DNA of 64,000 nt from the human T2T-CHM13v2.0 reference genome, Homo sapiens (GCA_009914755.4 CP086569.2:31040001-31104000); one strand, 5' to 3'; shown: positions 10,665 to 64,000, counted from the stretch's first letter. Made by a program: numbers and translations. Notes: a model not told the origin generated them from the sequence alone.

Positions 10665-10987
<323 letters not shown>

Positions 10988-13084: not shown

Positions 13085-13407
<323 letters not shown>

Positions 13408-15502: not shown

Positions 15503-15825
<323 letters not shown>

Positions 15826-20331: not shown

Positions 20332-20654
<323 letters not shown>

Positions 20655-25163: not shown

Positions 25164-25486
<323 letters not shown>

Positions 25487-27599
25487 ATTTTTTAAATGAA
25501 AAAAAATTTCAAAGGTACTCTGCTTGGTACAATAATCAAATGTATAAACTGAGGAATAAAACATAACCATGAAACCTACTTATAACTGCATATGGAAAAT
25601 ACAGAGGATAATTTTTTAAATAACATATTTTGAAAGCCTTAACTAGTAATTTGAAGAGCTGGAATTTGAAAGGCCAGTATGAATATACCTTCAAAGCAGC
25701 AACACAGGTTCCCCATGAGAAAAAGCAAACACAGGGCAAATAAAAACACAAAGGTTCAATCTCTTCTGACCTTTGAAAGACACAGCACAGACAGTGGTCC
25801 TTAGGACGAAGAGCAGGAGACCCCTAATTCCGTCACCATGGCGATAGGGCATAAACATTGCTGGGTGAGGGCACAATCCACATTGTGAGGTCCAACTGCT
25901 GCCAGGAAGACAGGAGTGCTTTTACATAGACCGAAAGGTCATTGAAGGCTCAGAGTTTTGTTTCAAGAACTGAATCCCAAGCCCACACGTTATTAGGCTG
26001 CGCTTCTTTAAACAAGTTATGAGATGGGAAAAAGGGCACCCACAAACATACGTATACATTATGTATATAATAATATACAGTATCATGTATATAATATATA
26101 TAACCTATGTATAATATTGTTTTACATCCTGCATCTTATGTTATATATATTGTATAAAATATAATAATTGATAATATATAAGTTTTATATTTATACAATA
26201 TGACATATAGTATATATTATAATTTATGACATATATAATATATGTTATATATCATATATAGAATATATTATACGGTTAATATACGTATTAAATATAAATT
26301 ATACATTATATATATTATATATAATATATCTGTTATATATAATACCCATTATGCATAATATATATATTATGTCTATGTTATATATAGTATAAAACAACAT
26401 ATAATAATATATAACTGTATATATAAAATGCGACATATAATATATATTATATTTTATAACATATGTAATATATATTATATATAATACGTTGTATGTATAA
26501 TACCTATATTAAATATATATTATATGACTATGTTATTAATTACATGTCACATGTGTTATATATTATATATTTTACATAGAATATACCGGTTACATACAAT
26601 ATATACTATGTTACCTATAATGTATAATTTATTACATGTAAAATAAAGAATGCAATATATTATGTATAATTTATAATATACAATATGTGGAATGTGATAT
26701 ATATAACATATAATATATGATATATGATATCCAGTATATGATATATAACATACAATATATGATTCCTAATATATATGGTATACAATATATATTTTATGAT
26801 ATGTATTCTATATGTTTTATATTCTGTTATATATAACTATTTGAAATTATATATAACTCTATAATATTTTATGTAAATATGTAATATAATATATATAACT
26901 ATATAATATATTATATATAACTATATATTATGTTATATATACTTTTATAACATAATTTACATAACATATCATAATATAATATATATTATATTATTTCATA
27001 TTACATAATATATATTACATATCACCCAATATAACTAACATACATAATATTATAATATAGATTATATTGTGTTATATTAAATATCATATATATCATGTAT
27101 CATATATTCTATAATATATATTACACATTATATAATATGTATGTTGTCTATTATGTGATATATATAACTATATATATAATTATATTTTTATACATATAAC
27201 TAGATAAACATGTAATTCTACATATTTTCATTTATAATATGTAGAATTATATAATCATATATAATTATTTATATTCTATAAAAAATTTTATCATTCTATA
27301 AATTATAATATATAAAAATTATAATATGTACTTCAAATATATATATTATATATCATATATGCTATAGTTCCTTTGTTATATATCATAATACATATAAATG
27401 TGTATTATGTTATCTATAATTATATAATTTCATATATAAGTTGAATAATATGTATCATATATTATATATGTTATGTAATATATATAGTATATATAAGATG
27501 ACACAGGATAAATATTATATACTATGACATATAAAATATATGAGGTTATATGTTACATATAAGGCATAGCACATAACATGTAATATATATCATATAGAA

Positions 27600-27899
27600 T
27601 TTTTTTTTAGACAGAATCTTGTCCTGTTGCACAGGGTGGGGTCCAATGGCGCCATCTTTGCTCACTGCAACTTCTGCCTCACGGGTCCAAGCGATTGTCC
27701 TCCCTCAGCCTCCCAGGTAGCTGGGACTACACCACACTGGGACTACACCAGCTGCCACCATGCCTAGCTAATTTTTTGGATTTTTAGTAGTGACAGCGTT
27801 TCACTGTATTGGCCAGGATGGTCTTGATCTCTTCACCTTGTGATCCCCTTGCCTTGGCCTCCAAATTTGCTGGGATTACAGGCCTGAGCCAAGATCCAT
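27600..27899 (-). mobile_element. Alu copy 12 (B, variant X).
   Basis: Periodic copy. Confidence 0.95.
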
Positions 27900-30012
27900 A
27901 TTTTTTAAATGAAAAACAATTTCAAAGGTACTCTGCTTGGTACAATAATCAAATGTATAAACTGAGGAATAAAACATAACCATGAAACCTACTTATAACT
28001 GCATATGGAAAATACAGAGGATAATTTTTTAAATAACATATTTTGAAAGCCTTAACTAGTAATTTGAAGAGTTGGCATTTGAAAGGCCAGTATGAATATA
28101 CCTTGAAAGCAGCAACACAGGTTCCCCGTGAGAAAAAGCAAACACAGGGAAAATAAAAACACAAAGGTTCAATCTCTTCTGACCTTTGAAAGACACAGCA
28201 CAGACAGTGGTCCTTAGGACGAAGAGCAGGAGACCCCTAATTCCGTCACCATGGCGATAGGGCATAAACATTGCTGGGTGAGGGCACAATCCACATTGTG
28301 AGGTCCAACTGCTGCCAGGAAGACAGGAGTGCTTTTACATAGACCGAAAGGTCATTGAAGGCTCAGAGTTTTGTTTCAGGAACTGAATCCCAAGCCCACA
28401 CGTTATTAGGCTGCGCTTCTTAAAACAAGTTATGAGATGGGAAAAAGGGCACCCACAAACATACGTATACATTATGTATATAATAATATACAGTATCATA
28501 TATATAATATATATAACCTATGTATAATATTGTTTTACATCCTGCATCTTATGTTATATATATTGTATAAAATATAATAATTGATAATATATAAGTTTTA
28601 TATTTATACAATATGACATATAGTATATATTATAATTTATGACATATATAATATATGTTATATGTCATATATAGAATATATTATACGGTTAATATACGTA
28701 TTAAATATAAATTATACATTATATATATTATATATAATATATCTGTTATATATAATACCCATTATGCATAATATATATATTATGTCTATGTTATATATAG
28801 TATAAAACAACATATAATAATATATAATTGTATATATAAAATGCGACATATAATATATATTATATTTTATAACATATGTAATATATATTATATATAATAC
28901 GTTGTATGTATAATACCTATATTAAATATATATTATATGACTATGTTATTAATTACATGTCACATGTGTTATATATTATATATTTTACATAGAATATACC
29001 GGTTACATACAATATATACTATGTTACCTATAATGTATAATTTATTACATGTAAAATAAAGAATGCAATATATTATGTAAAATTTATAATATACCATATG
29101 TGGAATGTGATATATATAACATATAATATATGATATATGATATACAGTATATGATATATAACATACAATATATGATTCCTAATATATATGGTATACAATA
29201 TATATTTTATGATATGTATTCTATATGTTTTATATTCTGTTATATATAACTATTTGAAATTATATATAACTGTATAATATTTTATGTAAATATGAAATAT
29301 AATATATATAACTATATAATATATTATATATAACTATATATTATGTTATATATACTTTTATAACATAATTTACATAAAATATCATAATATAATATATATT
29401 ATATTATTTCATATTACATAATATATATTACATATCACCCAATATAACTAACATACATAATATTATAATATAGATTATATTGTGTTATATTAAATATCAT
29501 ATATATCATGTATCATATATTCTATAATATATATTACACATTATATATTATGTATGTTGTCTATTATGTGATATATATAACTATATATATAATTATATTT
29601 TTATACATATAACTAGATAAACATGTAATTCTACATATTTTCATTTATAATATGTAGAATTATATAATCATATATAATTATTTATATTCTATAAAAAATT
29701 TTATCATTCTATAAATTATAATATATAAAAATTATAATATGTACTACAAATATATATATTATATATCATATATGCTCTAGTACCTTTGTTATATATCATA
29801 ATACATATAAATGTGTATTATGTTATCTATAATTATATAATTTCATATATAAGTTGTATAATATGTATCATATATTATATATGTTATGTAATATATATAG
29901 TATATATAAGATGACACAGGATAAATATTATATACTATGACATATAAAATATATGAGGTTATATGTTACATATAAGGCATAGCACATAACATGTAATATA
30001 TATCATATATAA

Positions 30013-30312
30013 TTTTTTTTTAGACAGAATCTTGTCCTGTTGCACAGGGTGGGGTACAATGGCGCCATCTTTGCTCACTGCAACTTCTGCCTCACGGGTC
30101 CAAGCGATTGTCCTCACTCAGCCTCCCAGGTAGCTGGGACTACACCACACTGGGACTACACCAGCTGCCACCATGCCTAGCTAATTTTTTGGATTTTTAG
30201 TAATGACAGCGTTTCACTGTATTGGCCAGGATGGTCTTGATCTCTTCACCTTGTGATCCCCTTGCCTTGGCCTCCAAATTTGCTGGGATTACAGGCCTGA
30301 GCCAAGATCCAT
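30013..30312 (-). mobile_element. Alu copy 13 (B, variant Y with 'cctcactcagcc' and 'agtaatgacagc').
   Basis: Periodic copy. Confidence 0.95.
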
Positions 30313-32432
30313 ATTTTTTAAATGAAAAAAAATTTCAAAGGTACTCTGCTTGGTACAATAATCAAATGTATAAACTGAGGAATAAAACATAACCATGAAA
30401 CCTACTTATAACTGCATATGGAAAATACAGAGGATAATTTTTTAAATAACATATTTTGAAAGCCTTAACTAGTAATTTGAAGAGTTGGCATTTGAAAGGC
30501 CAGTATGAATATACCTTCAAAGCAGCAACACAGGTTCCCCATGAGAAAAAGCAAACACAGGGAAAATAAAAACACAAAGGTTCAATCTCTTCTGACCTTT
30601 GAAAGACACAGCACAGACAGTGGTCCTTAGGACGAAGAGCAGGAGACCCCTAATTCCGTCACCATGGCGATAGGGCATAAACATTGCTGGGTGAGGGCAC
30701 AATCCACATTGTGAGGTCCAACTGCTGCCAGGAAGACAGGAGTGCTTTTACATAGACCGAAAGGTCATTGAAGGCTCAGAGTTTTGTTTCAAGAACTGAA
30801 TCCCAAGCCCACACGTTATTAGGCTGCGCTTCTTAAAACAAGTTATGAGATGGGAAAAAGGGCACCCACAAACATACGTATACATTATGTATATAATAAT
30901 ATACAGTGTCATATATATAATATATATAACCTATGTATAATATTGTTTTACATCCTGCATCTTATGTTATATATATTGTATAAAATATAATAATTGATAA
31001 TATATAAGTTTTATATTTATACAATATGACATATAGTATATATTATAATTTATGACATATATAATATATGTTATATGTCATATATAGAATATATTATACG
31101 GTTAATATACGTATTAAATATAAATTATACATTATATATATTATATATAATATATCTGTTATATATAATACCCATTATGCATAATATATATATTATGTCT
31201 ATGTTATATATAGTATAAAACAACATATAATAATATATAATTGTATATATTAAATGCGACATATAATATATATTATATTTTATAACATATGTAATATATA
31301 TTATATATTATATATAATACGTTGTATGTATAATACCTATATTAAATATATATTATATGACTATGTTATTAATTACATGTCGCATGTGTTATATATTATA
31401 TATTTTACATAGAATATACCGGTTACATACAATATATACTATGTTACCTATAATGTATAATTTATTACATGTAAAATAAAGAATGCAATATATTATGTAT
31501 AATTTATAATATACAATATGTGGAATGTGATATATATAACATATAATATATGATATATGATATACAGTATATGATATATAACATACAATATATGATTCCT
31601 AATATATATGGTATACAATATATATTTTATGATATGTATTCTATATGTTTTATATTCTGTTATATATAACTATTTGAAATTATATATAACTGTATAATAT
31701 TTTATGTAAATATGTAATATAATATATATAACTATATAATATATTATATATAACTATATATTATGTTATATATACTTTTATAACATAATTTACATAACAT
31801 ATCATAATATAATATATATTATATTATTTCATATTACATAATATATATTACATATCACCCAATATAACTAACATACATAATATTATAATATAGATTATAT
31901 TGTGTTATATTAAATATCATATATATCATGTATCATATATTCTATAATATATATTACACATTATATAATATGTATGTTGTCTATTATGTGATATATATAA
32001 CTCTATATATAATTATATTTTTATACATATAACTAGATAAACATGTAATTCTACATATTTTCATTTATAATATGTAGAATTATATAATCATATATAATTA
32101 TTTATATTCTATAAAAAATTTTATCATTCTATCAATTATAATATATAAAAATTATAATATGTACTACAAATATATATATTATATATCATATATGATATAG
32201 TACCTTTGTTATATATCATAATACATATAAATGTGTATTATGTTATCTATAATTATATAATTTCATATATAAGATGTATAATATGTATCATATATTATAT
32301 ATGTTATGTAATATATATAGTATATATAAGATGACACAGGATAAATATTATATACTATGACACATAAAATATATGAGGTTATATGTTACATATAAGGCAT
32401 AGCACATAACATGTAATATATATCATATATAA

Positions 32433-32732
32433 TTTTTTTTTAGACAGAATCTTGTCCTGTTGCACAGGGTGGGGTACAATGGCGCCATCTTTGCTCACTG
32501 CAACTTCTGCCTCACGGGACCAAGCGATTGTCCTCCCTCAGCCTCCCAGGTAGCTGGGACTACACCACACTGGGACTACACCAGCTGCCACCATGCCTAG
32601 CTAATTTTTTGGATTTTTAGTAGTGACAGCGTTTCACTGTATTGGCCAGGATGGTCTTGATCTCTTCACCTTGTGATCCCCTTGCCTTGGCCTCCAAATT
32701 TGCTGGGATTACAGGCCTGAGCCAAGATCCAT
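32433..32732 (-). mobile_element. Alu copy 14 (B, variant Z with 'cacgggaccaagc').
   Basis: Periodic copy. Confidence 0.95.
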
Positions 32733-34828
32733 ATTTTTTAAATGAAAAAAAATTTCAAAGGTACTCTGCTTGGTACAATAATCAAATGTATAAACTGAGG
32801 AATAAAACATAACCATGAAACCTACTTATAACTGCATATGGAAAATACAGAGGATAATTTTTTAAATAACATATTTTGAAAGCCTTAACTAGTAATTTGA
32901 AGAGTTGGCATTTGAAAGGCCAGTATGAATATACCTTCAAAGCAGCAACACAGGTTCCCCATGAGAAAAAGCAAACACAGGGAAAATAAAAACACAAAGG
33001 TTCAATCTCTTCTGACCTTTGAAAGACACAGCACAGACAGTGGTCCTTAGGACGAAGAGCAGGAGACCCCTAATTCCGTCACCATGGCGATAGGGCATAA
33101 ACATTGCTGGGTGAGGGCACAATCCACATTGTGAGGTCCAACTGCTGCCAGGAAGACAGGAGTGCTTTTACATAGACCGAAAGGTCATTGAAGGCTCAGA
33201 GTTTTGTTTCAAGAACTGAATCCCAAGCCCACACGTTATTAGGCTGCGCTTCTTAAAACAAGTTATGAGATGGGAAAAAGGGCACCCACAAACATACGTA
33301 TACATTATGTATATAATAATATACAGTGTCATATATATAATATATATAACCTATGTATAATATTGTTTTACATCCTGCATCTTATGTTATATATATTGTA
33401 TAAAATATAATAATTGATAATATATAAGTTTTATAATTATACAATATGACATATAGTATATATTATAATTTATGACATATATAATATATGTTATATATCA
33501 TATATAGAATATATTATAGGGTTAATATACGTATTAAATATAAATTATACATTATATATATTATATATAATATATCTGTTATATATAATACCCATTATGC
33601 ATAATATATATATTATGTCTATGTTATATATAGTATAAAACAACATATAATAATATATAATTGTATATATAAAATGCGACATATAATATATATTATATTT
33701 TATAACATATGTAATATATATTATATATTATATATAATACGTTGTATGTATAATACCTATATTAATTATATATTATATGACTATGTTATTAATTACATGT
33801 CACATGTGTTATATATTATATATTTACATAGAATATACCGGTTACATACAATATATACTATGTTACCTATAATGTATAATTTATTACATGTAAAATAAAG
33901 AATGCAATATATTATGTATAATTTATAATATACCATATGTGGAATGTGATATATATAACATATAATATATGATATATGATATACAGTATATGATATATAA
34001 CATACAATATATGATTCCTAATATATATGGTATACAATATATATTTTATGATATGTATTCTATATGTTTTATATTCTGTTATATATAACTATTTGAAATT
34101 ATATATAACTGTATAATATTTTATGTAAATATGAAATACAATATATATAACTATATAATATATTATATATAACTATATATTATGTTATATATACTTTTAT
34201 AACATAATTTACATAAAATATCATAATATAATATATATTATATTATTTCATATTACATAATATATATTACATATCACCCAATATAACTAACATACATAAT
34301 ATTATAATATAGATTATATTGTGTTATATTAAATATCATATATATCATGTATCATATATTCTATAATATATATTACACATTATATATTATGTATGTTGTC
34401 TATTATGTGATATATATAACTATATATATAATTATATTTTTATACATATAACTAGATAAACATGTAATTCTACATATTTTCATTTATAATATGTAGAATT
34501 ATATAATCATATATAATTATTTATATTCTATAAAAAATTTTATCATTCTATAAATTATAATATATAAAAATTATAATATGTACTACAAATATATATATTA
34601 TATATCATATATGCTCTAGTACCTTTGTTATATATCATAATACATATAAATGTGTATTATGTTATCTATAATTATATAAATTCATATATAAGTTGTATAA
34701 TATGTATCATATATTATATATGTTATGTAATATACATAGTATATATAAGATGACACAGGATAAATATTATATACTATGACATATAAAATATATGAGGTTA
34801 TATGTTACATATAAGGCATAGCACATAA

Positions 34829-35151
<323 letters not shown>

Positions 35152-37271
35152 ATTTTTTAAATGAAAAACAATTTCAAAGGTACTCTGCTTGGTACAATAA
35201 TCAAATGTATAAACTGAGGAATAAAACATAACCATGAAACCTACTTATAACTGCATATGGAAAATACAGAGGATAATTTTTTAAATAACATATTTTGAAA
35301 GCCTTAACTAGTAATTTGAAGAGTTGGCATTTGAAAGGCCAGTATGAATATACCTTCAAAGCAGCAACACAGGTTCCCCATGAGAAAAAGCAAACACAGG
35401 GAAAATAAAAACACAAAGGTTCAATCTCTTCTGACCTTTGAAAGACACAGCACAGACAGTGGTCCTTAGGACGAAGAGCAGGAGACCCCTAATTCCGTCA
35501 CCATGGCGATAGGGCATAAACATTGCTGGGTGAGGGCACAATCCACATTGTGAGGTCCAACTGCTGCCAGGAAGACAGGAGTGCTTTTACATAGACCGAA
35601 AGGTCATTGAAGGCTCAGAGTTTTGTTTCAAGAACTGAATCCCAAGCCCACACGTTATTAGGCTGCGCTTCTTAAAACAAGTTATGAGATGGGAAAAAGG
35701 GCACCCACAAACATACGTATACATTATGCATATAATAATATACAGTGTCATATATATAATTTATATAACCTATGTATAATATTGTTTTACATCCTGCATC
35801 TTATGTTATATATATTGTATAAAATATAATAATTGATAATATATAAGTTTTATATTTATACAATATGACATATAGTATATATTATAATTTATGACATATA
35901 TAATATATGTTATATGTCATATATAGAATATATTATACGGTTAATATACGTATTAAATATAAATTATACATTATATATATTATATATAATATATCTGTTA
36001 TATATAATACCCATTATGCATAATATATATATTATGTCTATGTTATATATAGTATAAAACAACATATAATAATATATAATTGTATATATTAAATGCGACA
36101 TATAATATATATTATATTTTATAACATATGTAATATATATTATATATTATATATAATACGTTGTATGTATAATACCTATATTAAATATATATTATATGAC
36201 TATGTTATTAATTACATGTCACATGTGTTATATATTATATATTTTACATAGAATATACCGGTTACATACAATATATACTATGTTACGTATAATGTATAAT
36301 TTATTACATGTAAAATAAAGAATGCAATATATTATGTATAATTTATAATATACAATATGTGGAATGTGATATATATAACATATAATATATGATATATGAT
36401 ATACAGTATATGATATATAACATACAATATATGATTCCTAATATATATGGTATACAATATATATTTTATGATATGTATTCTATATGTTTTATATTCTGTT
36501 ATATATAACTATTTGAAATTATATATAACTGTATAATATTTTATGTAAATATGTAATATAATATATATAACTATATAATATATTATATATAACTATATAT
36601 TATGTTATATATACTTTTATAACATAATTTACATAAAATATCATAATATAATATATATTATATTATTTCATATTACATAATATATATTACATATCACCCA
36701 ATATAACTAACATACATAATATTATAATATAGATTATATTGTGTTATATTAAATATCATATATATCATGTATCATATATTCTATAATATATATTACACAT
36801 TATATAATATGTATGTTGTCTATTATGTGATATATATAACTCTATATATAATTATATTTTTATACATATAACTAGATAAACATGTAATTCTACATATTTT
36901 CATTTATAATATGTAGAATTATATAATCATATATAATTATTTATATTCTATAAAAAATTTTATCATTCTATCAATTATAATATATAAAAATTATAATATG
37001 TACTACAAATATATATATTATATATCATATATGATATAGTACCTTTGTTATATATCATAATACATATAAATGTGTATTATGTTATCTATAATTATATAAT
37101 TTCATATATAAGATGTATAATATGTATCATATATTATATATGTTATGTAATATATATAGTATATATAAGATGACACAGGATAAATATTATATACTATGAC
37201 ACATAAAATATATGAGGTTATATGTTACATATAAGGCATAGCACATAACATGTAATATATATCATATATAA

Positions 37272-37571
37272 TTTTTTTTTAGACAGAATCTTGTCCTGTT
37301 GCACAGGGTGGGGTACAATGGCGCCATCTTTGCTCACTGCAACTTCTGCCTCACGGGACCAAGCGATTGTCCTCCCTCAGCCTCCCAGGTAGCTGGGACT
37401 ACACCACACTGGGACTACACCAGCTGCCACCATGCCTAGCTAATTTTTTGGATTTTTAGTAGTGACAGCGTTTCACTGTATTGGCCAGGATGGTCTTGAT
37501 CTCTTCACCTTGTGATCCCCTTGCCTTGGCCTCCAAATTTGCTGGGATTACAGGCCTGAGCCAAGATCCAT
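37272..37571 (-). mobile_element. Alu copy 16 (B, Z).
   Basis: Periodic copy. Confidence 0.95.
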
Positions 37572-39668
37572 ATTTTTTAAATGAAAAACAATTTCAAAGG
37601 TACTCTGCTTGGTACAATAATCAAATGTATAAACTGAGGAATAAAACATAACCATGAAACCTACTTATAACTGCATATGGAAAATACAGAGGATAATTTT
37701 TTAAATAACATATTTTGAAAGCCTTAACTAGTAATTTGAAGAGTTGGCATTTGAAAGGCCAGTATGAATATACCTTCAAAGCAGCAACACAGGTTCCCCA
37801 TGAGAAAAAGCAAACACAGGGAAAATAAAAACACAAAGGTTCAATCTCTTCTGACCTTTGAAAGACACAGCACAGACAGTGGTCCTTAGGACGAAGAGCA
37901 GGAGACCCCTAATTCCGTCACCATGGCGATAGGGCATAAACATTGCTGGGTGAGGGCACAATCCACATTGTGAGGTCCAACTGCTGCCAGGAAGACAGGA
38001 GTGCTTTTACATAGACCGAAAGGTCATTGAAGGCTCAGAGTTTTGTTTCAAGAACTGAATCCCAAGCCCACACGTTATTAGGCTGCGCTTCTTAAAACAA
38101 GTTATGAGATGGGAAAAAGGGCACCCAAAAACATACGTATACATTATGTATATAATAATATACAGTGTCATATATATAATATATATAACCTATGTATAAT
38201 ATTGTTTTACATCCTGCATCTTATGTTATATATATTGTATAAAATATAATAATTGATAATATATAAGTTTTATAATTATACAATATGACATATAGTATAT
38301 ATTATAATTTATGACATATATAATATATGTTATATATCATATATAGAATATATTATAGGGTTAATATACGTATTAAATATAAATTATACATTATATATAT
38401 TATATATAATATATCTGTTATATATAATACCCATTATGCATAATATATATATTATGTCTATGTTATATATAGTATAAAACAACATATAATAATATATAAT
38501 TGTATATATAAAATGCGACATATAATATATATTATATTTTATAACATATGTAATATATATTATATATTATATATAATACGTTGTATGTATAATACCTATA
38601 TTAAATATATATTATATGACTATGTTATTAATTACATGTCACATGTGTTATATATTATATATTTTACATAGAATATACCGGTTACATACAATATATACTA
38701 TGTTACCTATAATGTATAATTTATTACATGTAAAATAAAGAATGCAATATATTATGTATAATTTATAATATACAATATGTGGAATGTGATATATATAACA
38801 TATAATATATGATATATGATATACAGTATATGATATATAACATACAATATATGATTCCTAATATATATGGTATACAATATATATTTTATGATATGTATTC
38901 TATATGTTTTATATTCTGTTATATATAACTATTTGAAATTATATATAACTGTATAATATTTTATGTAAATATGAAATACAATATATATAACTATATAATA
39001 TATTATATATAACTATATATTATGTTATATATACTTTTATAACATAATTTACATAAAATATCATAATATAATATATATTATATTATTTCATATTACATAA
39101 TATATATTACATATCACCCAATATAACTAACATACATAATATTATAATATAGATTATATTGTGTTATATTAAATATCATATATATCATGTATCATATATT
39201 CTATAATATATATTACACATTATATATTATGTATGTTGTCTATTATGTGATATATATAACTATATATATAATTATATTTTTATACATATAACTAGATAAA
39301 CATGTAATTCTACATATTTTCATTTATAATATGTAGAATTATATAATCATATATAATTATTTATATTCTATAAAAAATTTTATCATTCTATAAATTATAA
39401 TATATAAAAATTATAATATGTACTACAAATATATATATTATATATCATATATGCTCTAGTACCTTTGTTATATATCATAATACATATAAATGTGTATTAT
39501 GTTATCTATAATTATATAATTTCATATATAAGTTGTATAATATGTATCATATATTATATATGTTATGTAATATATATAGTATATATAAGATGACACAGGA
39601 TAAATATTATATACTATGACATATAAAATATATGAGGTTATATGTTACATATAAGGCATAGCACATAA

Positions 39669-39991
<323 letters not shown>

Positions 39992-42111
39992 ATTTTTTAA
40001 ATGAAAAAAAATTTCAAAGGTACTCTGCTTGGTACAATAATCAAATGTATAAACTGAGGAATAAAACATAACCATGAAACCTACTTATAACTGCATATGG
40101 AAAATACAGAGGATAATTTTTTAAATAACATATTTTGAAAGCCTTAACTAGTAATTTGAAGAGTTGGCATTTGAAAGGCCAGTATGAATATACCTTCAAA
40201 GCAGCAACACAGGTTCCCCATGAGAAAAAGCAAACACAGGGAAAATAAAAACACAAAGGTTCAATCTCTTCTGACCTTTGAAAGACACAGCACAGACAGT
40301 GGTCCTTAGGACGAAGAGCAGGAGACCCCTAATTCCGTCACCATGGCGATAGGGCATAAACATTGCTGGGTGAGGGCACAATCCACATTGTGAGGTCCAA
40401 CTGCTGCCAGGAAGACAGGAGTGCTTTTACATAGACCGAAAGGTCATTGAAGGCTCAGAGTTTTGTTTCAAGAACTGAATCCCAAGCCCACACGTTATTA
40501 GGCTGCGCTTCTTAAAACAAGTTATGAGATGGGAAAAAGGGCACCCACAAACATACGTATACATTATGTATATAATAATATACAGTGTCATATATATAAT
40601 ATATATAACCTATGTATAATATTGTTTTACATCCTGCATCTTATGTTATATATATTGTATAAAATATAATAATTGATAATATATAAGTTTTATATTTATA
40701 CAATATGACATATAGTATATATTATAATTTATGACATATATAATATATGTTATATGTCATATATAGAATATATTATACGGTTAATATACGTATTAAATAT
40801 AAATTATACATTATATATATTATATATAATATATCTGTTATATATAATACCCATTATGCATAATATATATATTATGTCTATGTTATATATAGTATAAAAC
40901 AACATATAATAATATATAATTGTATATATTAAATGCGACATATAATATATATTATATTTTATAACATATGTAATATATATTATATATTATATATAATACG
41001 TTGTATGTATAATACCTATATTAAATATATATTATATGACTATGTTATTAATTACATGTCGCATGTGTTATATATTATATATTTTACATAGAATATACCG
41101 GTTACATACAATATATACTATGTTACCTATAATGTATAATTTATTACATGTAAAATAAAGAATGCAATATATTATGTATAATTTATAATATACAATATGT
41201 GGAATGTGATATATATAACATATAATATATGATATATGATATACAGTATATGATATATAACATACAATATATGATTCCTAATATATATGGTATACAATAT
41301 ATATTTTATGATATGTATTCTATATGTTTTATATTCTGTTATATATAACTATTTGAAATTATATATAACTGTATAATATTTTATGTAAATATGTAATATA
41401 ATATATATAACTATATAATATATTATATATAACTATATATTATGTTATATATACTTTTATAACATAATTTACATAAAATATCATAATATAATATATATTA
41501 TATTATTTCATATTACATAATATATATTACATATCACCCAATATAACTAACATACATAATATTATAATATAGATTATATTGTGTTATATTAAATATCATA
41601 TATATCATGTATCATATATTCTATAATATATATTACACATTATATAATATGTACGTTGTCTATTATGTGATATATATAACTCTATATATAATTATATTTT
41701 TATACATATAACTAGATAAACATGTAATTCTACATATTTTCATTTATAATATGTAGAATTATATAATCATATATAATTATTTATATTCTATAAAAAATTT
41801 TATCATTCTATCAATTATAATATATAAAAATTATAATATGTACTACAAATATATATATTATATATCATATATGATATAGAACCTTTGTTATATATCACAA
41901 TACATATAAATGTGTATTATGTTATCTATAATTATATAATTTCATATATAAGATGTATAATATGTATCATATATTATATATGTTATGTAATATATATAGT
42001 ATATATAAGATGACACAGGATAAATATTATATACTATGACATATAAAATATATGAGGTTATATGTTACATATAAGGCATAGCACATAACATGTAATATAT
42101 ATCATATATAA

Positions 42112-42411
42112 TTTTTTTTTAGACAGAATCTTGTCCTGTTGCACAGGGTGGGGTACAATGGCGCCATCTTTGCTCACTGCAACTTCTGCCTCACGGGACC
42201 AAGCGATTGTCCTCCCTCAGCCTCCCAGGTAGCTGGGACTACACCACACTGGGACTACACCAGCTGCCACCATGCCTAGCTAATTTTTTGGATTTTTAGT
42301 AGTGACAGCGTTTCACTGTATTGGCCAGGATGGTCTTGATCTCTTCACCTTGTGATCCCCTTGCCTTGGCCTCCAAATTTGCTGGGATTACAGGCCTGAG
42401 CCAAGATCCAT
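42112..42411 (-). mobile_element. Alu copy 18 (B, Z).
   Basis: Periodic copy. Confidence 0.95.
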
Positions 42412-44531
42412 ATTTTTTAAATGAAAAACAATTTCAAAGGTACTCTGCTTGGTACAATAATCAAATGTATAAACTGAGGAATAAAACATAACCATGAAAC
42501 CTACTTATAACTGCATATGGAAAATACAGAGGATAATTTTTTAAATAACATATTTTGAAAGCCTTAACTAGTAATTTGAAGAGTTGGCATTTGAAAGGCC
42601 AGTATGAATATACCTTCAAAGCAGCAACACAGGTTCCCCATGAGAAAAAGCAAACACAGGGAAAATAAAAACACAAAGGTTCAATCTCTTCTGACCTTTG
42701 AAAGACACAGCACAGACAGTGGTCCTTAGGACGAAGAGCAGGAGACCCCTAATTCCGTCACCATGGCGATAGGGCATAAACATTGCTGGGTGAGGGCACA
42801 ATCCACATTGTGAGGTCCAACTGCTGCCAGGAAGACAGGAGTGCTTTTACATAGACCGAAAGGTCATTGAAGGCTCAGAGTTTTGTTTCAAGAACTGAAT
42901 CCCAAGCCCACACGTTATTAGGCTGCGCTTCTTAAAACAAGTTATGAGATGGGAAAAAGGGCACCCACAAACATACGTATACATTATGTATATAATAATA
43001 TACAGTGTCATATATATAATATATATAACCTATGTATAATATTGTTTTACATCCTGCATCTTATGTTATATATATTGTATAAAATATAATAATTGATAAT
43101 ATATAAGTTTTATATTTATACAATATGACATATAGTATATATTATAATTTATGACATATATAATATATGTTATATGTCATATATAGAATATATTATACGG
43201 TTAATATACGTATTAAATATAAATTATACATTATATATATTATATATAATATATCTGTTATATATAATACCCATTATGCATAATATATATATTATGTCTA
43301 TGTTATATATAGTATAAAACAACATATAATAATATATAATTGTATATATTAAATGCGACATATAATATATATTATATTTTATAACATATGTAATATATAT
43401 TATATATTATATATAATACGTTGTATGTATAATACCTATATTAAATATATATTATATGACTATGTTATTAATTACATGTCACATGTGTTATATATTATAT
43501 ATTTTACATAGAATATACCGGTTACATACAATATATACTATGTTACCTATAATGTATAATTTATTACATGTAAAATAAAGAATGCAATATATTATGTATA
43601 ATTTATAATATACAATATGTGGAATGTGATATATATAACATATAATATATGATATATGATATCCAGTATATGATATATAACATACAATATATGATTCCTA
43701 ATATATATGGTATACAATATATATTTTATGATATGTATTCTATATGTTTTATATTCTGTTATATATAACTATTTGAAATTATATATAACTGTATAATATT
43801 TTATGTAAATATGTAATATAATATATATAACTATATAATATATTATATATAACTATATATTATGTTATATATACTTTTATAACATAATTTACATAACATA
43901 TCATAATATAATATATATTATATTATTTCATATTACATAATATATATTACATATCACCCAATATAACTAACATACATAATATTATAATATAGATTATATT
44001 GTGTTATATTAAATATCATATATATCATGTATCATATATTCTATAATATATATTACACATTATATAATATGTATGTTGTCTATTATGTGATATATATAAC
44101 TATATATATAATTATATTTTTATACATATAACTAGATAAACATGTAATTCTACATATTTTCATTTATAATATGTAGAATTATATAATCATATATAATTAT
44201 TTATATTCTATAAAAAATTTTATCATTCTATAAATTATAATATATAAAAATTATAATATGTACTTCAAATATATATATTATATATCATATATGCTATAGT
44301 TCCTTTGTTATATATCATAATACATATAAATGTGTATTATGTTATCTATAATTATATAATTTCATATATAAGTTGAATAATATGTATCATATATTATATA
44401 TGTTATGTAATATATATAGTATATATAAGATGACACAGGATAAATATTATATACTATGACATATAAAATATATGAGGTTATATGTTACATATAAGGCATA
44501 GCACATAACATGTAATATATATCATATAGAA

Positions 44532-44831
44532 TTTTTTTTTAGACAGAATCTTGTCCTGTTGCACAGGGTGGGGTCCAATGGCGCCATCTTTGCTCACTGC
44601 AACTTCTGCCTCACGGGTCCAAGCGATTGTCCTCCCTCAGCCTCCCAGGTAGCTGGGACTACACCACACTGGGACTACACCAGCTGCCACCATGCCTAGC
44701 TAATTTTTTGGATTTTTAGTAGTGACAGCGTTTCACTGTATTGGCCAGGATGGTCTTGATCTCTTCACCTTGTGATCCCCTTGCCTTGGCCTCCAAATTT
44801 GCTGGGATTACAGGCCTGAGCCAAGATCCAT
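44532..44831 (-). mobile_element. Alu copy 19 (B, X; matches copy 12).
   Basis: Periodic copy. Confidence 0.95.
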
Positions 44832-46944
44832 ATTTTTTAAATGAAAAACAATTTCAAAGGTACTCTGCTTGGTACAATAATCAAATGTATAAACTGAGGA
44901 ATAAAACATAACCATGAAACCTACTTATAACTGCATATGGAAAATACAGAGGATAATTTTTTAAATAACATATTTTGAAAGCCTTAACTAGTAATTTGAA
45001 GAGTTGGCATTTGAAAGGCCAGTATGAATATACCTTGAAAGCAGCAACACAGGTTCCCCGTGAGAAAAAGCAAACACAGGGAAAATAAAAACACAAAGGT
45101 TCAATCTCTTCTGACCTTTGAAAGACACAGCACAGACAGTGGTCCTTAGGACGAAGAGCAGGAGACCCCTAATTCCGTCACCATGGCGATAGGGCATAAA
45201 CATTGCTGGGTGAGGGCACAATCCACATTGTGAGGTCCAACTGCTGCCAGGAAGACAGGAGTGCTTTTACATAGACCGAAAGGTCATTGAAGGCTCAGAG
45301 TTTTGTTTCAGGAACTGAATCCCAAGCCCACACGTTATTAGGCTGCGCTTCTTAAAACAAGTTATGAGATGGGAAAAAGGGCACCCACAAACATACGTAT
45401 ACATTATGTATATAATAATATACAGTATCATATATATAATATATATAACCTATGTATAATATTGTTTTACATCCTGCATCTTATGTTATATATATTGTAT
45501 AAAATATAATAATTGATAATATATAAGTTTTATATTTATACAATATGACATATAGTATATATTATAATTTATGACATATATAATATATGTTATATGTCAT
45601 ATATAGAATATATTATACGGTTAATATACGTATTAAATATAAATTATACATTATATATATTATATATAATATATCTGTTATATATAATACCCATTATGCA
45701 TAATATATATATTATGTCTATGTTATATATAGTATAAAACAACATATAATAATATATAATTGTATATATAAAATGCGACATATAATATATATTATATTTT
45801 ATAACATATGTAATATATATTATATATAATACGTTGTATGTATAATACCTATATTAAATATATATTATATGACTATGTTATTAATTACATGTCACATGTG
45901 TTATATATTATATATTTTACATAGAATATACCGGTTACATACAATATATACTATGTTACCTATAATGTATAATTTATTACATGTAAAATAAAGAATGCAA
46001 TATATTATGTAAAATTTATAATATACCATATGTGGAATGTGATATATATAACATATAATATATGATATATGATATACAGTATATGATATATAACATACAA
46101 TATATGATTCCTAATATATATGGTATACAATATATATTTTATGATATGTATTCTATATGTTTTATATTCTGTTATATATAACTATTTGAAATTATATATA
46201 ACTGTATAATATTTTATGTAAATATGAAATATAATATATATAACTATATAATATATTATATATAACTATATATTATGTTATATATACTTTTATAACATAA
46301 TTTACATAAAATATCATAATATAATATATATTATATTATTTCATATTACATAATATATATTACATATCACCCAATATAACTAACATACATAATATTATAA
46401 TATAGATTATATTGTGTTATATTAAATATCATATATATCATGTATCATATATTCTATAATATATATTACACATTATATATTATGTATGTTGTCTATTATG
46501 TGATATATATAACTATATATATAATTATATTTTTATACATATAACTAGATAAACATGTAATTCTACATATTTTCATTTATAATATGTAGAATTATATAAT
46601 CATATATAATTATTTATATTCTATAAAAAATTTTATCATTCTATAAATTATAATATATAAAAATTATAATATGTACTACAAATATATATATTATATATCA
46701 TATATGCTCTAGTACCTTTGTTATATATCATAATACATATAAATGTGTATTATGTTATCTATAATTATATAATTTCATATATAAGTTGTATAATATGTAT
46801 CATATATTATATATGTTATGTAATATATATAGTATATATAAGATGACACAGGATAAATATTATATACTATGACATATAAAATATATGAGGTTATATGTTA
46901 CATATAAGGCATAGCACATAACATGTAATATATATCATATATAA

Positions 46945-47244
46945 TTTTTTTTTAGACAGAATCTTGTCCTGTTGCACAGGGTGGGGTACAATGGCGCCAT
47001 CTTTGCTCACTGCAACTTCTGCCTCACGGGTCCAAGCGATTGTCCTCACTCAGCCTCCCAGGTAGCTGGGACTACACCACACTGGGACTACACCAGCTGC
47101 CACCATGCCTAGCTAATTTTTTGGATTTTTAGTAATGACAGCGTTTCACTGTATTGGCCAGGATGGTCTTGATCTCTTCACCTTGTGATCCCCTTGCCTT
47201 GGCCTCCAAATTTGCTGGGATTACAGGCCTGAGCCAAGATCCAT
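46945..47244 (-). mobile_element. Alu copy 20 (B, Y; matches copy 13).
   Basis: Periodic copy. Confidence 0.95.
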
Positions 47245-49364
47245 ATTTTTTAAATGAAAAAAAATTTCAAAGGTACTCTGCTTGGTACAATAATCAAATG
47301 TATAAACTGAGGAATAAAACATAACCATGAAACCTACTTATAACTGCATATGGAAAATACAGAGGATAATTTTTTAAATAACATATTTTGAAAGCCTTAA
47401 CTAGTAATTTGAAGAGTTGGCATTTGAAAGGCCAGTATGAATATACCTTCAAAGCAGCAACACAGGTTCCCCATGAGAAAAAGCAAACACAGGGAAAATA
47501 AAAACACAAAGGTTCAATCTCTTCTGACCTTTGAAAGACACAGCACAGACAGTGGTCCTTAGGACGAAGAGCAGGAGACCCCTAATTCCGTCACCATGGC
47601 GATAGGGCATAAACATTGCTGGGTGAGGGCACAATCCACATTGTGAGGTCCAACTGCTGCCAGGAAGACAGGAGTGCTTTTACATAGACCGAAAGGTCAT
47701 TGAAGGCTCAGAGTTTTGTTTCAAGAACTGAATCCCAAGCCCACACGTTATTAGGCTGCGCTTCTTAAAACAAGTTATGAGATGGGAAAAAGGGCACCCA
47801 CAAACATACGTATACATTATGTATATAATAATATACAGTGTCATATATATAATATATATAACCTATGTATAATATTGTTTTACATCCTGCATCTTATGTT
47901 ATATATATTGTATAAAATATAATAATTGATAATATATAAGTTTTATATTTATACAATATGACATATAGTATATATTATAATTTATGACATATATAATATA
48001 TGTTATATGTCATATATAGAATATATTATACGGTTAATATACGTATTAAATATAAATTATACATTATATATATTATATATAATATATCTGTTATATATAA
48101 TACCCATTATGCATAATATATATATTATGTCTATGTTATATATAGTATAAAACAACATATAATAATATATAATTGTATATATTAAATGCGACATATAATA
48201 TATATTATATTTTATAACATATGTAATATATATTATATATTATATATAATACGTTGTATGTATAATACCTATATTAAATATATATTATATGACTATGTTA
48301 TTAATTACATGTCGCATGTGTTATATATTATATATTTTACATAGAATATACCGGTTACATACAATATATACTATGTTACCTATAATGTATAATTTATTAC
48401 ATGTAAAATAAAGAATGCAATATATTATGTATAATTTATAATATACAATATGTGGAATGTGATATATATAACATATAATATATGATATATGATATACAGT
48501 ATATGATATATAACATACAATATATGATTCCTAATATATATGGTATACAATATATATTTTATGATATGTATTCTATATGTTTTATATTCTGTTATATATA
48601 ACTATTTGAAATTATATATAACTGTATAATATTTTATGTAAATATGTAATATAATATATATAACTATATAATATATTATATATAACTATATATTATGTTA
48701 TATATACTTTTATAACATAATTTACATAAAATATCATAATATAATATATATTATATTATTTCATATTACATAATATATATTACATATCACCCAATATAAC
48801 TAACATACATAATATTATAATATAGATTATATTGTGTTATATTAAATATCATATATATCATGTATCATATATTCTATAATATATATTACACATTATATAA
48901 TATGTATGTTGTCTATTATGTGATATATATAACTCTATATATAATTATATTTTTATACATATAACTAGATAAACATGTAATTCTACATATTTTCATTTAT
49001 AATATGTAGAATTATATAATCATATATAATTATTTATATTCTATAAAAAATTTTATCATTCTATCAATTATAATATATAAAAATTATAATATGTACTACA
49101 AATATATATATTATATATCATATATGATATAGTACCTTTGTTATATATCATAATACATATAAATGTGTATTATGTTATCTATAATTATATAATTTCATAT
49201 ATAAGATGTATAATATGTATCATATATTATATATGTTATGTAATATATATAGTATATATAAGATGACACAGGATAAATATTATATACTATGACACATAAA
49301 ATATATGAGGTTATATGTTACATATAAGGCATAGCACATAACATGTAATATATATCATATATAA

Positions 49365-49664
49365 TTTTTTTTTAGACAGAATCTTGTCCTGTTGCACAGG
49401 GTGGGGTACAATGGCGCCATCTTTGCTCACTGCAACTTCTGCCTCACGGGACCAAGCGATTGTCCTCCCTCAGCCTCCCAGGTAGCTGGGACTACACCAC
49501 ACTGGGACTACACCAGCTGCCACCATGCCTAGCTAATTTTTTGGATTTTTAGTAGTGACAGCGTTTCACTGTATTGGCCAGGATGGTCTTGATCTCTTCA
49601 CCTTGTGATCCCCTTGCCTTGGCCTCCAAATTTGCTGGGATTACAGGCCTGAGCCAAGATCCAT
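49365..49664 (-). mobile_element. Alu copy 21 (B, Z; matches copy 14).
   Basis: Periodic copy. Confidence 0.95.
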
Positions 49665-51784
49665 ATTTTTTAAATGAAAAAAAATTTCAAAGGTACTCTG
49701 CTTGGTACAATAATCAAATGTATAAACTGAGGAATAAAACATAACCATGAAACCTACTTATAACTGCATATGGAAAATACAGAGGATAATTTTTTAAATA
49801 ACATATTTTGAAAGCCTTAACTAGTAATTTGAAGAGTTGGCATTTGAAAGGCCAGTATGAATATACCTTCAAAGCAGCAACACAGGCTCCCCATGAGAAA
49901 AAGCAAACACAGGGAAAATAAAAACACAAAGGTTCAATCTCTTCTGACCTTTGAAAGACACAGCACAGACAGTGGTCCTTAGGACGAAGAGCAGGAGACC
50001 CCTAATTCCGTCACCATGGCGATAGGGCATAAACATTGCTGGGTGAGGGCAAAATCCACATTGTGAGGTCCAACTGCTGCCAGGAAGACAGGAGTGCTTT
50101 TACATAGACCGAAAGGTCATTGAAGGCTCAGAGTTTTGTTTCAAGAACTGAATCCCAAGCCCACACGTTATTAGGCTGCGCTTCTTAAAACAAGTTATGA
50201 GATGGGAAAAAGGGCACCCACAAACATACGTATACATTATGTATATAATAATATACAGTGTCATATATATAATATATATAACCTATGTATAATATTGTTT
50301 TACATCCTGCATCTTATGTTATATATATTGTATAAAATATAATAATTGATAATATATAAGTTTTATAATTATACAATATGACATATAGTATATATTATAA
50401 TTTATGACATATATAATATATGTTATATATCATATATAGAATATATTATAGGGTTAATATACGTATTAAATATAAATTATACATTATATATATTATATAT
50501 AATATATCTGTTATATATAATACCCATTATGCATAATATATATATTATGTCTATGTTATATATAGTATAAAACAACATATAATAATATATAATTGTATAT
50601 ATAAAATGCGACATATAATATATATTATATTTTATAACATATGTAATATATATTTTATATTATATATAATACGTTGTATGTATAATACCTATATTAAATA
50701 TATATTATATGACTATGTTATTAATTACATGTCACATGTGTTATATATTATATATTTTACATAGAATATACCGGTTACATACAATATATACTATGTTACC
50801 TATAATGTATAATTTATTACATGTAAAATAAAGAATGCAATATATTATGTATAATTTATAATATACAATATGTGGAATGTGATATATATAACATATAATA
50901 TATGATATATGATATACAGTATATGATATATAACATACAATATATGATTCCTAATATATATGGTATACAATATATATTTTATGATATGTATTCTATATGT
51001 TTTATATTCTGTTATATATAACTATTTGAAATTATATATAACTGTATAATATTTTATGTAAATATGTAATATAATATATATAACTATATAATATATTATA
51101 TATAACTATATATTATGTTATATATACTTTTATAACATAATTTACATAAAATATCATAATATAATATATATTATATTATTTCATATTACATAATATATAT
51201 TACATATCACCCAATATAACTAACATACATAATATTATAATATAGATTATATTGTGTTACATTAAATATCATATATATCATGTATCATATATTCTATAAT
51301 ATATATTACACATTATATAATATGTATGTTGTCTATTATGTGATATATATAACTCTATATATAATTATATTTTTATACATATAACTAGATAAACATGTAA
51401 TTCTACATATTTTCATTTATAATATGTAGAATTATATAATCATATATAATTATTTATATTCTATAAAAAATTTTATCATTCTATCAATTATAATATATAA
51501 AAATTATAATATGTACTACAAATATATATATTATATATCATATATGATATAGTACCTTTGTTATATATCATAATACATATAAATGTGTATTATGTTATCT
51601 ATAATTATATAATTTCATATATAAGATGTATAATATGTATCATATATTATATATGTTATGTAATATATATAGTATATATAAGATGACACCGGATAAATAT
51701 TATATACTATGACATATAAAATATATGAGGTTATATGTTACATATAAGGCATAGCACATAACATGTAATATATATCATATATAA

Positions 51785-52084
51785 TTTTTTTTTAGACAGA
51801 ATCTTGTCCTGTTGCACAGGGTGGGGTACAATGGCGCCATCTTTGCTCACTGCAACTTCTGCCTCACGGGACCAAGCGATTGTCGTCCCTCAGCCTCCCA
51901 GGTAGCTGGGACTACACCACACTGGGACTACACCAGCTGCCACCATGCCTAGCTAATTTTTTGGATTTTTAGTAGTGACAGCGTTTCACTGTATTGGCCA
52001 GGATGGTCTTGATCTCTTCACCTTGTGATCCCCTTGCCTTGGCCTCCAAATTTGCTGGGATTACAGGCCTGAGCCAAGATCCAT
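51785..52084 (-). mobile_element. Alu copy 22 (B, Z-like).
   Basis: Periodic copy. Confidence 0.95.

Positions 52085-59003: not shown

Positions 59004-59326
<323 letters not shown>

Positions 59327-63831: not shown

Positions 63832-64000
<169 letters not shown>

What the first reader, a model, noticed from the sequence alone, without database searches (positions are those of the whole stretch)
26600..50830. Segmental duplication of a three-unit block at 7-unit (16,932 bp) spacing
A ~7.3 kb segment at ~26600-33900 reappears at ~43530-50830 with the same private variants. In unit X these are 'tccagtat' (26708 / 43663), 'cataacatatc', 'ataagttgaataat', 'gctatagttcc', 'aaacaatttc', 'ccttgaaagc' and 'ccccgtgag'. 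The X-unit 77-aa and 71-aa ORF variants are identical at 28056/27949 and 44988/44881. In unit Y these are Alu 'cctcactcagcc' and 'agtaatgacagc' (30113 / 47047). In unit Z these are 'cacgggaccaagc', 'cacataaaat', 'ttttataattatac' and 'attatagggtta' (33520 / 50440). The flanks do not share these states. Upstream, 26400 differs from 43340. Downstream, the unit at 34852 is Y-like whereas the unit at 51785 is Z-like. This points to a recent intra-array duplication or unequal sister-chromatid exchange spanning 7 units.
Basis: seen in the sequence. Interest (0 to 1): 0.6.

Follow-up and report, generated by a model that had tools for sequence, protein, structure and literature searches.

The report
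Recent two-unit copy in DYZ2 satellite
Inside an ordinary human DYZ2 (HSat1B) satellite array, two neighbouring 2.4-kb repeat units have recently been copied to a place seven units (16,932 bp) downstream, which is the kind of repeat shuffling already documented for this satellite.

Summary
The whole window is a tandem array of 26.4 units of 2,411-2,420 bp. GC is 24.4%, with one CpG per 148 bp. Each unit holds an AT-rich part, a 5'-truncated Alu and a more GC-rich part. This matches published descriptions of human DYZ2/HSat1B.

26469-31797 equals 43401-48729 (5,329 bp) with one mismatch, and 4,938 bp of that is exact. The next-longest exact repeat in the window is 1,858 bp. At every other unit offset the same tract is 97.5-99.4% identical.

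Only two units are specifically paired: X (u12/u19, nine substitutions found in no other unit) and Y (u13/u20, 0 differences). The third unit, Z (u14/u21), has 7 differences, no more alike than either is to u16.

One unequal exchange at a 7-unit offset would duplicate all 16.9 kb, but u15-u18 versus u22-u25 differ at 21-33 sites each. The best reading is a non-reciprocal, out-of-register copying event: long-tract gene conversion or SDSA, replacing or adding two units, probably u12-u13 into u19-u20. The main rival is a 7-unit duplication followed by deletion. This is ordinary satellite turnover, of low interest.

The parts
1..64000 (-). Tandem array of 26.4 DYZ2/HSat1B-type units (u1 to u26 start at 106, 2523, ..., 60536). 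The Alu-derived part lies on the minus strand.
   Evidence: A conserved 20-mer recurs 27 times at spacings of 2411-2420 bp. GC is 24.45% and there is one CpG per 148 bp. Unit lengths are 2420 bp (12 units) and 2413 bp (5 units). Each unit has an Alu match.
26469..31797 (.). Copy 1 of the near-identical tract, the probable donor. It comprises the end of u11, all of u12 (X), all of u13 (Y) and the first 273 columns of u14.
   Evidence: 5,329 bp with one mismatch to 43401-48729. u12 shares the column-1804 A state with its left neighbours u8 to u11, and column-168 C with u11.
43401..48729 (.). Copy 2 of the tract, the probable recipient or insertion. It comprises the end of u18, all of u19 (X), all of u20 (Y) and the first 273 columns of u21.
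   Evidence: Same calls as copy 1. u19 is an isolated 2,413-bp unit that carries the 'left-side' state at column 1804, sitting within a run of 2,420-bp units that carry G at that column.
26692..29104 (.). Unit u12 (type X, 2,413 bp). Its twin is u19 at 43624-46036.
   Evidence: One difference between the two. Nine substitutions occur in these two units only (columns 40, 642, 678, 753, 906, 952, 1414, 1437, 1688).
29105..31524 (.). Unit u13 (type Y, 2,420 bp). Its twin is u20 at 46037-48456.
   Evidence: No differences between the two. They share a private variant at column 1012 (30116/47048). u17 is the next closest unit, with 2 differences.
26859..26859 (.). The only mismatch inside the tract: C here versus G at 43791. 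The C is shared only with the left neighbour u11 (24446).
26415..26468 (.). Left edge of the tract. The last differences before identity begins are 26415 C / 43340 T, 26425 A / 43350 T, and the 7-bp TATATAT present at 43394-43400 but absent after 26468.
31798..33943 (.). The rest of unit u14 (type Z), with counterpart 48730-50876 in u21. It is not specifically paired and lies outside the event.
   Evidence: 7 differences (31798, 32955, 33120, 33723, 33766, a 1-bp indel after 33822, and 33934). u16 is equally close to both units.
29105..43623 (.). Older local two-unit (Y-Z, about 4,840 bp) alternation across u13 to u18: Y Z Y' Z Y Z'.
   Evidence: Type-specific variants alternate from unit to unit. 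The Y copies differ from each other by 0-9 sites and the Z copies by 5-13.
30013..30304 (-). Example of the Alu-derived segment of a unit (u13). It is 5'-truncated (starting at Alu position 13) and 77% identical to an AluY consensus.
   Evidence: blastn against an AluY consensus written from memory, E = 6e-42. A sub-threshold hit to the Alu-derived family mir-1268 occurs in each of the three units scanned (26400-34000).

Best explanation
The window is a human DYZ2/HSat1B satellite array, most probably from Yq12. Within it, one recent non-reciprocal, homology-templated repair event copied about two units to a position exactly seven units downstream. The copied units are X and Y: at least 26731-30116, and at most 26469-31797 without a second mismatch.

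Inferred mechanism. A break arose in the AT-rich part at the u18/u21 junction region. The broken end invaded a sister chromatid (or the same chromatid) misaligned by 7 units, at the end of u11. DNA synthesis then copied u12 and u13 into the start of u14. The new strand re-annealed in register to the Z-type unit on the other side of the break. Depending on where it annealed, this either replaced two resident units (long-tract gene conversion) or added two units (SDSA-type expansion of 4,833 bp).

The direction u12-u13 to u19-u20 is favoured. The single mismatch, 391 bp from the left edge, would be patchy heteroduplex repair or a later change.

Shown here: the identity patch, its edges, and the absence of a 7-unit duplication or a 7-unit higher-order repeat. 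Inferred: the break, the template choice, the direction, and whether copy number changed.
For: Identity patch:
- It is 5,329 bp with 1 mismatch, of which 4,938 bp is exact. The next-longest exact repeat in the window is 1,858 bp.
- The same tract is 97.5-99.4% identical at all other offsets.

Flanks:
- Both flanks are unrelated: u11/u18 have 34 differences and u15/u22 have 25.
- The third unit is no closer to its counterpart than either is to u16.
- The differences are non-uniform (p about 0.001-0.002).
- Register is preserved across both edges, so homology was used.

Direction:
- u19 carries column-1804 A, a state otherwise confined to u1-u6 and u8-u12.
- u19 also carries the 7-bp deletion found in u10-u12.
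- It sits among 2,420-bp units that have G at column 1804.

Order of events:
- The intervening Y/Z copies are more diverged from u13/u14 (2-9 and 6-13 differences) than u20 is from u13 (0). The Y-Z alternation is therefore older than the X-Y transfer.

Literature:
- Yq12 shows about one de novo DYZ2 structural variant per transmission, sized 2,416-4,839 bp (1-2 units), and 29% of Yq12 de novo SNVs match non-orthologous copies, which the authors interpret as interlocus gene conversion (PMC12240836).
- A later preprint classifies 17% of Yq12 events as gene conversion (PMC13252187).
- Sister-chromatid exchanges are seen in Yq12 (10.1101/2022.12.01.518724).
- Own knowledge: DSB repair within tandem arrays by SDSA gives expansions and contractions (Paques, Leung & Haber 1998), and long-tract gene conversion between sister chromatids spans several kb (Johnson & Jasin 2000).
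Against: A tract of 3.4-5.3 kb is long for human gene conversion. The median tract in Y palindromes is 542 bp (PMC13252187). With about one unit-scale DYZ2 structural variant per transmission, multi-step histories are not improbable. A single haplotype cannot show whether the event was reciprocal, which copy is the donor, or whether the array gained units. No read-level data are available to exclude an assembly error.
Confidence: 0.55

Rival explanations
1. Two-step reciprocal history. An unequal sister-chromatid exchange at a 7-unit offset first made a 16.9-kb tandem duplication (u12-u18 twice). A later unequal exchange then deleted most of the second copy, leaving only X, Y and the start of Z.
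For: The spacing is exactly the sum of seven unit lengths. Unequal exchange is the mechanism proposed for Yq12 duplications, and local deletions and expansions are documented in HSat1B sub-arrays (Extended Data Fig. 8 legend). De novo DYZ2 unit gains and losses occur about once per transmission, so a second hit in a 17-kb region within hundreds to thousands of generations is plausible.
Against: It needs two events where one suffices. The right part of u21 matches neither u16 nor u18 specifically: over columns 274-2420 it has 5 and 12 differences to them, and u22 is not Y-like. The deletion would therefore have had to remove more than 4.8 units and end outside the duplicated block. Observed de novo events span 1-2 units, not 5-7.
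Confidence: 0.25
2. Assembly artefact. Reads from one place in a near-identical satellite array were placed twice, or a local mis-join created a false second X-Y copy.
For: Satellite arrays of 98-99% identity are the hardest regions to assemble. The second copy is almost error-free and in register.
Against: Both copies have distinct, informative flanks within a few hundred bp on each side. The patch (5.3 kb) is shorter than typical long reads. The two copies differ at one site, which a duplicated read placement would not produce. The window otherwise shows a smooth gradient of variants.
Confidence: 0.08
3. A circular two-unit (4,833 bp) extrachromosomal copy of X-Y was excised or copied from a sister chromatid. 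It then reintegrated by homologous recombination five units downstream.
For: The informative duplicated block is exactly two whole units, and the junctions lie in sequence shared by many units. This is what homologous integration of a unit-multiple circle would give. Own knowledge: circles derived from satellites are known in human cells.
Against: There is no direct evidence. The sequence outcome is indistinguishable from an SDSA expansion, and this route needs more steps.
Confidence: 0.05
4. A 7-unit higher-order repeat of the array that is only partly preserved.
For: The local order X Y Z Y' Z Y Z' | X Y Z looks periodic.
Against: Along the +7 diagonal the median is 81 differences per 5,336 columns, worse than offsets 1-6 (56-79). 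u5-u11 vs u12-u18 and u15-u19 vs u22-u26 show no excess identity.
Confidence: 0.02

Closest known systems
DYZ2 / HSat1B satellite of human Yq12 (also present on acrocentric short arms)
   Same: Unit lengths are 2,413 and 2,420 bp. GC is 24% and there is one CpG per about 150 bp. The unit is composite: a part with more than 85% AT, a diverged 5'-truncated AluY and a more GC-rich part. Neighbouring units are 97-99.9% identical (compared).
   Different: Nothing structural differs. The chromosome of origin (Y or acrocentric) cannot be determined here.
Recent local duplications and deletions in HSat1B sub-arrays, attributed to unequal exchange (Rhie et al. 2023, Extended Data Fig. 8; Hallast et al. 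2023)
   Same: In-register, unit-multiple rearrangement inside a DYZ2 array, visible as a run of exact long-k-mer matches off the main diagonal.
   Different: The two copies here do not abut. A 4.8-5.3 kb patch sits 16.9 kb from its source with unrelated units between, so one reciprocal exchange cannot produce it.
Interlocus (intra-array) gene conversion in Yq12 inferred from pedigrees (Porubsky et al. 2025, PMC12240836; PMC13252187)
   Same: Non-allelic transfer of variants between DYZ2 copies on the same chromosome. The donor lies nearby and the register is kept.
   Different: The pedigree events are single SNVs or small clusters (within 300 bp). This patch carries at least 10 linked variants over at least 3.4 kb, so it is a long tract.
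SDSA-type expansion or contraction of tandem repeats during double-strand-break repair, and long-tract gene conversion between sister chromatids (Paques et al. 1998; Johnson & Jasin 2000; own knowledge)
   Same: It predicts a non-reciprocal, in-register copy of a whole number of units from a misaligned template, with an unchanged donor.
   Different: Those mechanisms were shown in yeast and in reporter constructs. Here the mechanism is only inferred from the sequence footprint.

Membership tests
DYZ2 / HSat1B satellite | Tandem unit of about 2.4 kb, with 2,413 bp the commonest length and a 2,420-bp consensus (Hallast 2023) | tested here: met
   There are 26 units. Lengths are 2420 bp (12 units), 2413 (5), 2411 (3), and five others between 2415 and 2419.
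DYZ2 / HSat1B satellite | Composite unit: an extremely AT-rich part, an ancient 5'-truncated AluY (about 20% diverged), and a more GC-rich (HSATI) part | tested here: met
   About 1,540 bp of the unit is at 7-22% GC. An Alu match runs from Alu position 13 to the poly-A tail at 77% identity (the consensus was recalled from memory). A part of 26-51% GC follows. The HSATI label itself was not tested against a repeat library, because none is available.
DYZ2 / HSat1B satellite | 24% GC and about one CpG per 150 bp | tested here: met
   24.45% GC and one CpG per 148 bp, compared.
DYZ2 / HSat1B satellite | Human origin; located on Yq12 rather than on acrocentric short arms | not testable with these tools
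   The support is indirect only. Copies at 98-99.9% identity occur as short stray contigs in 17 unrelated bacterial assemblies and in metagenomes, which is the contamination pattern Rhie et al. report for HSat1B. Inter-unit identity of 97-99.9% fits the Y arrays. No human reference genome was available.
Tandem duplication by one unequal crossover or sister-chromatid exchange | The duplicated length equals the spacing, so the two copies abut and the whole 16.9 kb is present twice | tested here: not met
   Only 5.3 kb of the 16.9 kb is shared. u15-u18 vs u22-u25 differ at 25, 21, 33 and 26 sites.
Higher-order repeat (7-unit HOR) | Raised identity along the whole diagonal at the HOR period | tested here: not met
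   The median is 81 differences per 5,336 columns at +7 units, against 56-79 at +1 to +6.
Non-reciprocal transfer (gene conversion or SDSA patch) | An in-register patch of near-identity, bounded on both sides by sequence with unrelated variant states | tested here: met
   The left edge is at 26468/43400. The right edge is at 31798/48730, or at the latest 32955/49887.
Non-reciprocal transfer (gene conversion or SDSA patch) | Donor unchanged and no reciprocal product; the state of the recipient before the event is known | not testable with these tools
   This needs the orthologous array from related haplotypes or a pedigree.
Non-reciprocal transfer (gene conversion or SDSA patch) | Short tract typical of human gene conversion (hundreds of bp; median 542 bp in Y palindromes) | tested here: not met
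   The tract is at least 3,386 bp (26731-30116) and up to 5,329 bp. If it is conversion, it is of the long-tract kind.

The most novel reading that the evidence does not exclude
The patch is the footprint of a single long-tract (at least 3.4 kb) out-of-register templated repair event in Yq12 heterochromatin, with a patchy-repair site near one end. If so, such patches could be catalogued across complete Y assemblies. That catalogue would measure the tract length, distance and direction of the non-reciprocal exchange that homogenises DYZ2, and the patches would serve as rare-event markers of Y lineages.
Probability: 0.5. Interest if true: 0.25.

Novelty: already known. Interest (0 to 1): 0.12.

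Why it matters
It matters little beyond bookkeeping. It is one clean, base-resolved example of how a human macrosatellite is homogenised locally, and it shows that not every off-diagonal stripe in a satellite array is a simple unequal-crossover duplication. The practical lesson for the scan is that unit-type variants shared by many units (here the Z type) must not be counted as private markers of a duplication. Separately, this satellite turns up as human contamination in bacterial genome assemblies.

Tried and rejected
- The repeat finder on 24000-53000 reported only 300-nt in-register families and did not isolate the long pair. An earlier call failed on a parameter limit.
- A strict self-blastn returned no rows. 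I replaced it with a direct string comparison and an exact 1,000-mer diagonal scan.
- Global ungapped autocorrelation is dominated by indel phase and does not single out 16,932.
- An X-specific 44-mer spanning two private variants had no match in metagenome contigs, so no outside copy of the X type was found. The general 44-mer gave only short or more diverged copies, which say nothing about the event.
- Rfam gave only sub-threshold, Alu-derived mir-1268 hits.
- The 77-aa and 71-aa ORFs are mechanical TTG-start ORFs in a satellite and were not pursued.
- I rejected the model 'three-unit XYZ tandem duplication, later split by insertion of Y-Z dimers'. The intervening Y/Z copies are more diverged from u13/u14 than u20 is from u13.
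- I rejected a 7-unit higher-order repeat.
- The heptamer ACATACG mentioned by Hallast et al. occurs once per unit, but it is too short to count as evidence.
Full report
**What the window is**

A conserved 20-mer recurs 27 times at spacings of 2,411-2,420 bp, so the whole 64 kb is one tandem array. I cut it into 26 complete units (u1 to u26, starting at 106, 2523..., 60536) and aligned them in 2,420 columns.

- Unit lengths are 2,420 bp (12 units) and 2,413 bp (5 units), with a few of 2,411-2,419 bp.
- GC is 24.45%, with one CpG per 148 bp.
- Each unit has about 1.5 kb at 7-22% GC. It has a minus-strand Alu fragment that starts at Alu position 13 and is 77% identical to an AluY consensus, which I wrote from memory. 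It also has a part at 26-51% GC.

Hallast et al. (bioRxiv 10.1101/2022.12.01.518658) describe DYZ2/HSat1B in matching terms:
- a unit of about 2.4 kb
- an AT-rich repeat fused to a 5'-truncated Alu, followed by HSATI
- 24% GC and one CpG per 150 bp
- 2,413 bp as the commonest length and a 2,420-bp consensus

Rhie et al. (10.1101/2022.12.01.518724) add an AluY about 20% diverged and units mostly more than 98% identical.

A conserved 44-mer of the unit also occurs in 17 short contigs of taxonomically unrelated bacterial assemblies and in 23 metagenome stretches. Those long enough to compare are mostly 98-99.9% identical to the window's units. This is the human-contamination pattern Rhie et al. 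report for HSat1B.

I therefore file the window as human DYZ2/HSat1B, probably from Yq12. Y versus acrocentric origin cannot be tested here.

**Checking the observation**

Unit-by-unit differences (mismatch plus gap columns):

| Pair | Differences |
|---|---|
| u12/u19 | 1 |
| u13/u20 | 0 |
| u14/u21 | 7 |
| u11/u18 | 34 |
| u15/u22 | 25 |

- On the raw sequence, 26469-31797 and 43401-48729 (5,329 bp) differ only at 26859 C / 43791 G. Within that, 26860-31797 is an exact 4,938-bp match to 43792-48729.
- An alignment-free scan finds only 11 maximal exact repeats of at least 1 kb in the window. This is the longest, and the next is 1,858 bp.
The tract is 99.98% identical at +7 units, against 98.7-99.4% at +1..+12 and 97.5-98.9% at -1..-10.
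- u12 and u19 share nine substitutions found in no other unit. u13 and u20 share one private variant.

The core observation is real and far beyond chance.

- The third unit is not part of the specific pairing. u14/u21 (7 differences) are no closer than u14/u16 (6) or u21/u16 (5), and they share no private variant.
- All four 'private' Z motifs also occur in u16, and mostly in u22 to u26 as well.
- The eight differences over 26469-33943 are non-uniform (KS p = 0.0018; 1 per 5,329 bp vs 7 per 2,146 bp, p = 0.001).
- The 223 bp to the left of X is identical in u11, u16, u18 and u22. The 273 bp to the right of Y is identical in u8, u10, u14, u16, u18 and u21 to u23.

The informative copied block is therefore exactly X+Y (4,833 bp). 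The bounds are:
- minimum from private markers: 26731-30116
- maximum with one mismatch: 26469-31797
- maximum with two mismatches: 26469-32954

**Local context**

Units u12 to u22 read X Y Z Y' Z Y Z' X Y Z Z. The Y-Z alternation in u13 to u18 is an older two-unit periodicity. Its copies differ from u13/u14 by 2-9 and 6-13 sites, which is more than u20 differs from u13 (0). This rules out a three-unit duplication later split by dimer insertions.

There is no 7-unit higher-order repeat. The median along the +7 diagonal is 81 differences per 5,336 columns, worse than offsets 1-6.

**Mechanism**

A single unequal exchange at a 7-unit offset would leave two abutting 16.9-kb copies. That is not seen: u15-u18 vs u22-u25 have 21-33 differences each. 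The pattern is instead an in-register patch with unrelated flanks.

The simplest cause is one non-reciprocal templated repair event with a 7-unit misalignment. This could be long-tract gene conversion that replaced two units, or an SDSA-type event that added two units.

The direction u12-u13 to u19-u20 is favoured for three reasons:
- u19 carries the column-1804 A state, otherwise confined to u1-u6 and u8-u12.
- u19 has the 7-bp deletion found in u10 to u12.
- u19 sits isolated among 2,420-bp units that carry G at column 1804.

The lone mismatch (C, shared only by u11 and u12) lies 391 bp from the left edge. That is compatible with patchy heteroduplex repair or a later change. Both strict edges fall in the AT-rich part of the unit.

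The main rival is a 7-unit duplication followed by a deletion. That deletion must end outside the duplicated block, because the right part of u21 matches neither u16 nor u18 specifically and u22 is not Y-like. It needs two events but is not far-fetched, given about one DYZ2 unit gain or loss per Y transmission (PMC12240836).

Against simple gene conversion, the tract of 3.4-5.3 kb is long. The median in Y palindromes is 542 bp (PMC13252187).

Assembly error and reintegration of a two-unit circle cannot be excluded, but nothing specifically supports them.

**Age (inference)**

There is one difference in 5,329 bp.
- At the Yq12 rate of 3.86e-7 per bp per generation, this gives about 240 generations (95% range 6-1,350).
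- At about 3e-8 (own knowledge, Y euchromatin), it gives about 3,100 generations.

Both are recent on the human time-scale, so the patch may be polymorphic among Y lineages.

**Comparison with what is known**

Local expansions and deletions, unequal exchange, sister-chromatid exchange and interlocus gene conversion in DYZ2 are all published. This is one more instance, and it is unusual only in being a clean multi-kb non-abutting patch.

**Verdict**

Novelty: already known. Interest is low.

Noticed in passing
window 29105-43623 (u13-u18): Local two-unit (Y-Z, about 4,840 bp) higher-order alternation. The Y copies u13/u17/u20 differ by 0-2 sites and u15 by 7-9. The Z copies u14/u16/u21/u22 differ by 5-10. 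This alternation is older than the X-Y transfer.
   Followed up: partly
window 106-14619 (u1-u6) versus 17031-62946 (u8-u26): The array changes sub-family across the window. u1 to u6 differ from each other at 12-40 sites but from u8 to u26 at 46-75 sites. u7 is intermediate. u9 (19451-21865) is the most divergent unit, with 44-76 differences and several small deletions.
   Followed up: no
window, alignment columns 2191-2197 of each unit (e.g. 43394-43400 present; absent after 26468): A 7-bp TATATAT indel separates the shorter (2,411- and 2,413-bp) units (u7, u10, u11, u12, u19, u23, u24, u26) from the 2,420-bp units. These two length classes are the same as those reported for DYZ2, although the published 7-mer at the HSATI/AT-rich junction is a different one (ACATACG).
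   Followed up: partly
window 24446 and 26859 (column 168 of u11 and u12): A G>C transversion is shared only by two adjacent units and is absent from u19, the near-perfect twin of u12. It may be a short conversion between neighbouring units, or an ancestral state that was restored in the copy.
   Followed up: partly
loci L024-L040 (e.g. LZSC01000004.1 Mycobacterium sp., NZ_QLZA01000025.1 Bifidobacterium tibiigranuli, BMTN01000090.1 Streptomyces kurssanovii): Short contigs (0.3-2.5 kb) in 17 species-representative bacterial genome assemblies carry an exact 44-mer of this satellite. Sixteen gave alignments of at least 600 bp, at 96-99.9% identity (mostly above 98%). They are almost certainly human DNA contamination.
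   Followed up: partly
loci L001/L009/L022 (BNJT01002008.1, 54 kb) and L004 (BNJU01004413.1, 54.6 kb): Two long metagenome contigs hold arrays of the same satellite at only 95-98% identity to the window's units. They may be a different HSat1B sub-family (for example acrocentric) or noisy long-read assembly.
   Followed up: no
window 27704-27770, 30117-30183, 32537-32603 (minus strand): Sub-threshold Rfam hits to mir-1268 (33.9 bits against a gathering score of 83) occur in each of the three units scanned (26400-34000). They fall inside the Alu-derived part and are not evidence of a miRNA gene.
   Followed up: yes
The 77-aa form is specific to X units (61 aa in the Y unit). They are identical in the two copies only because the DNA is identical, and nothing suggests they are coding.
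   Followed up: yes
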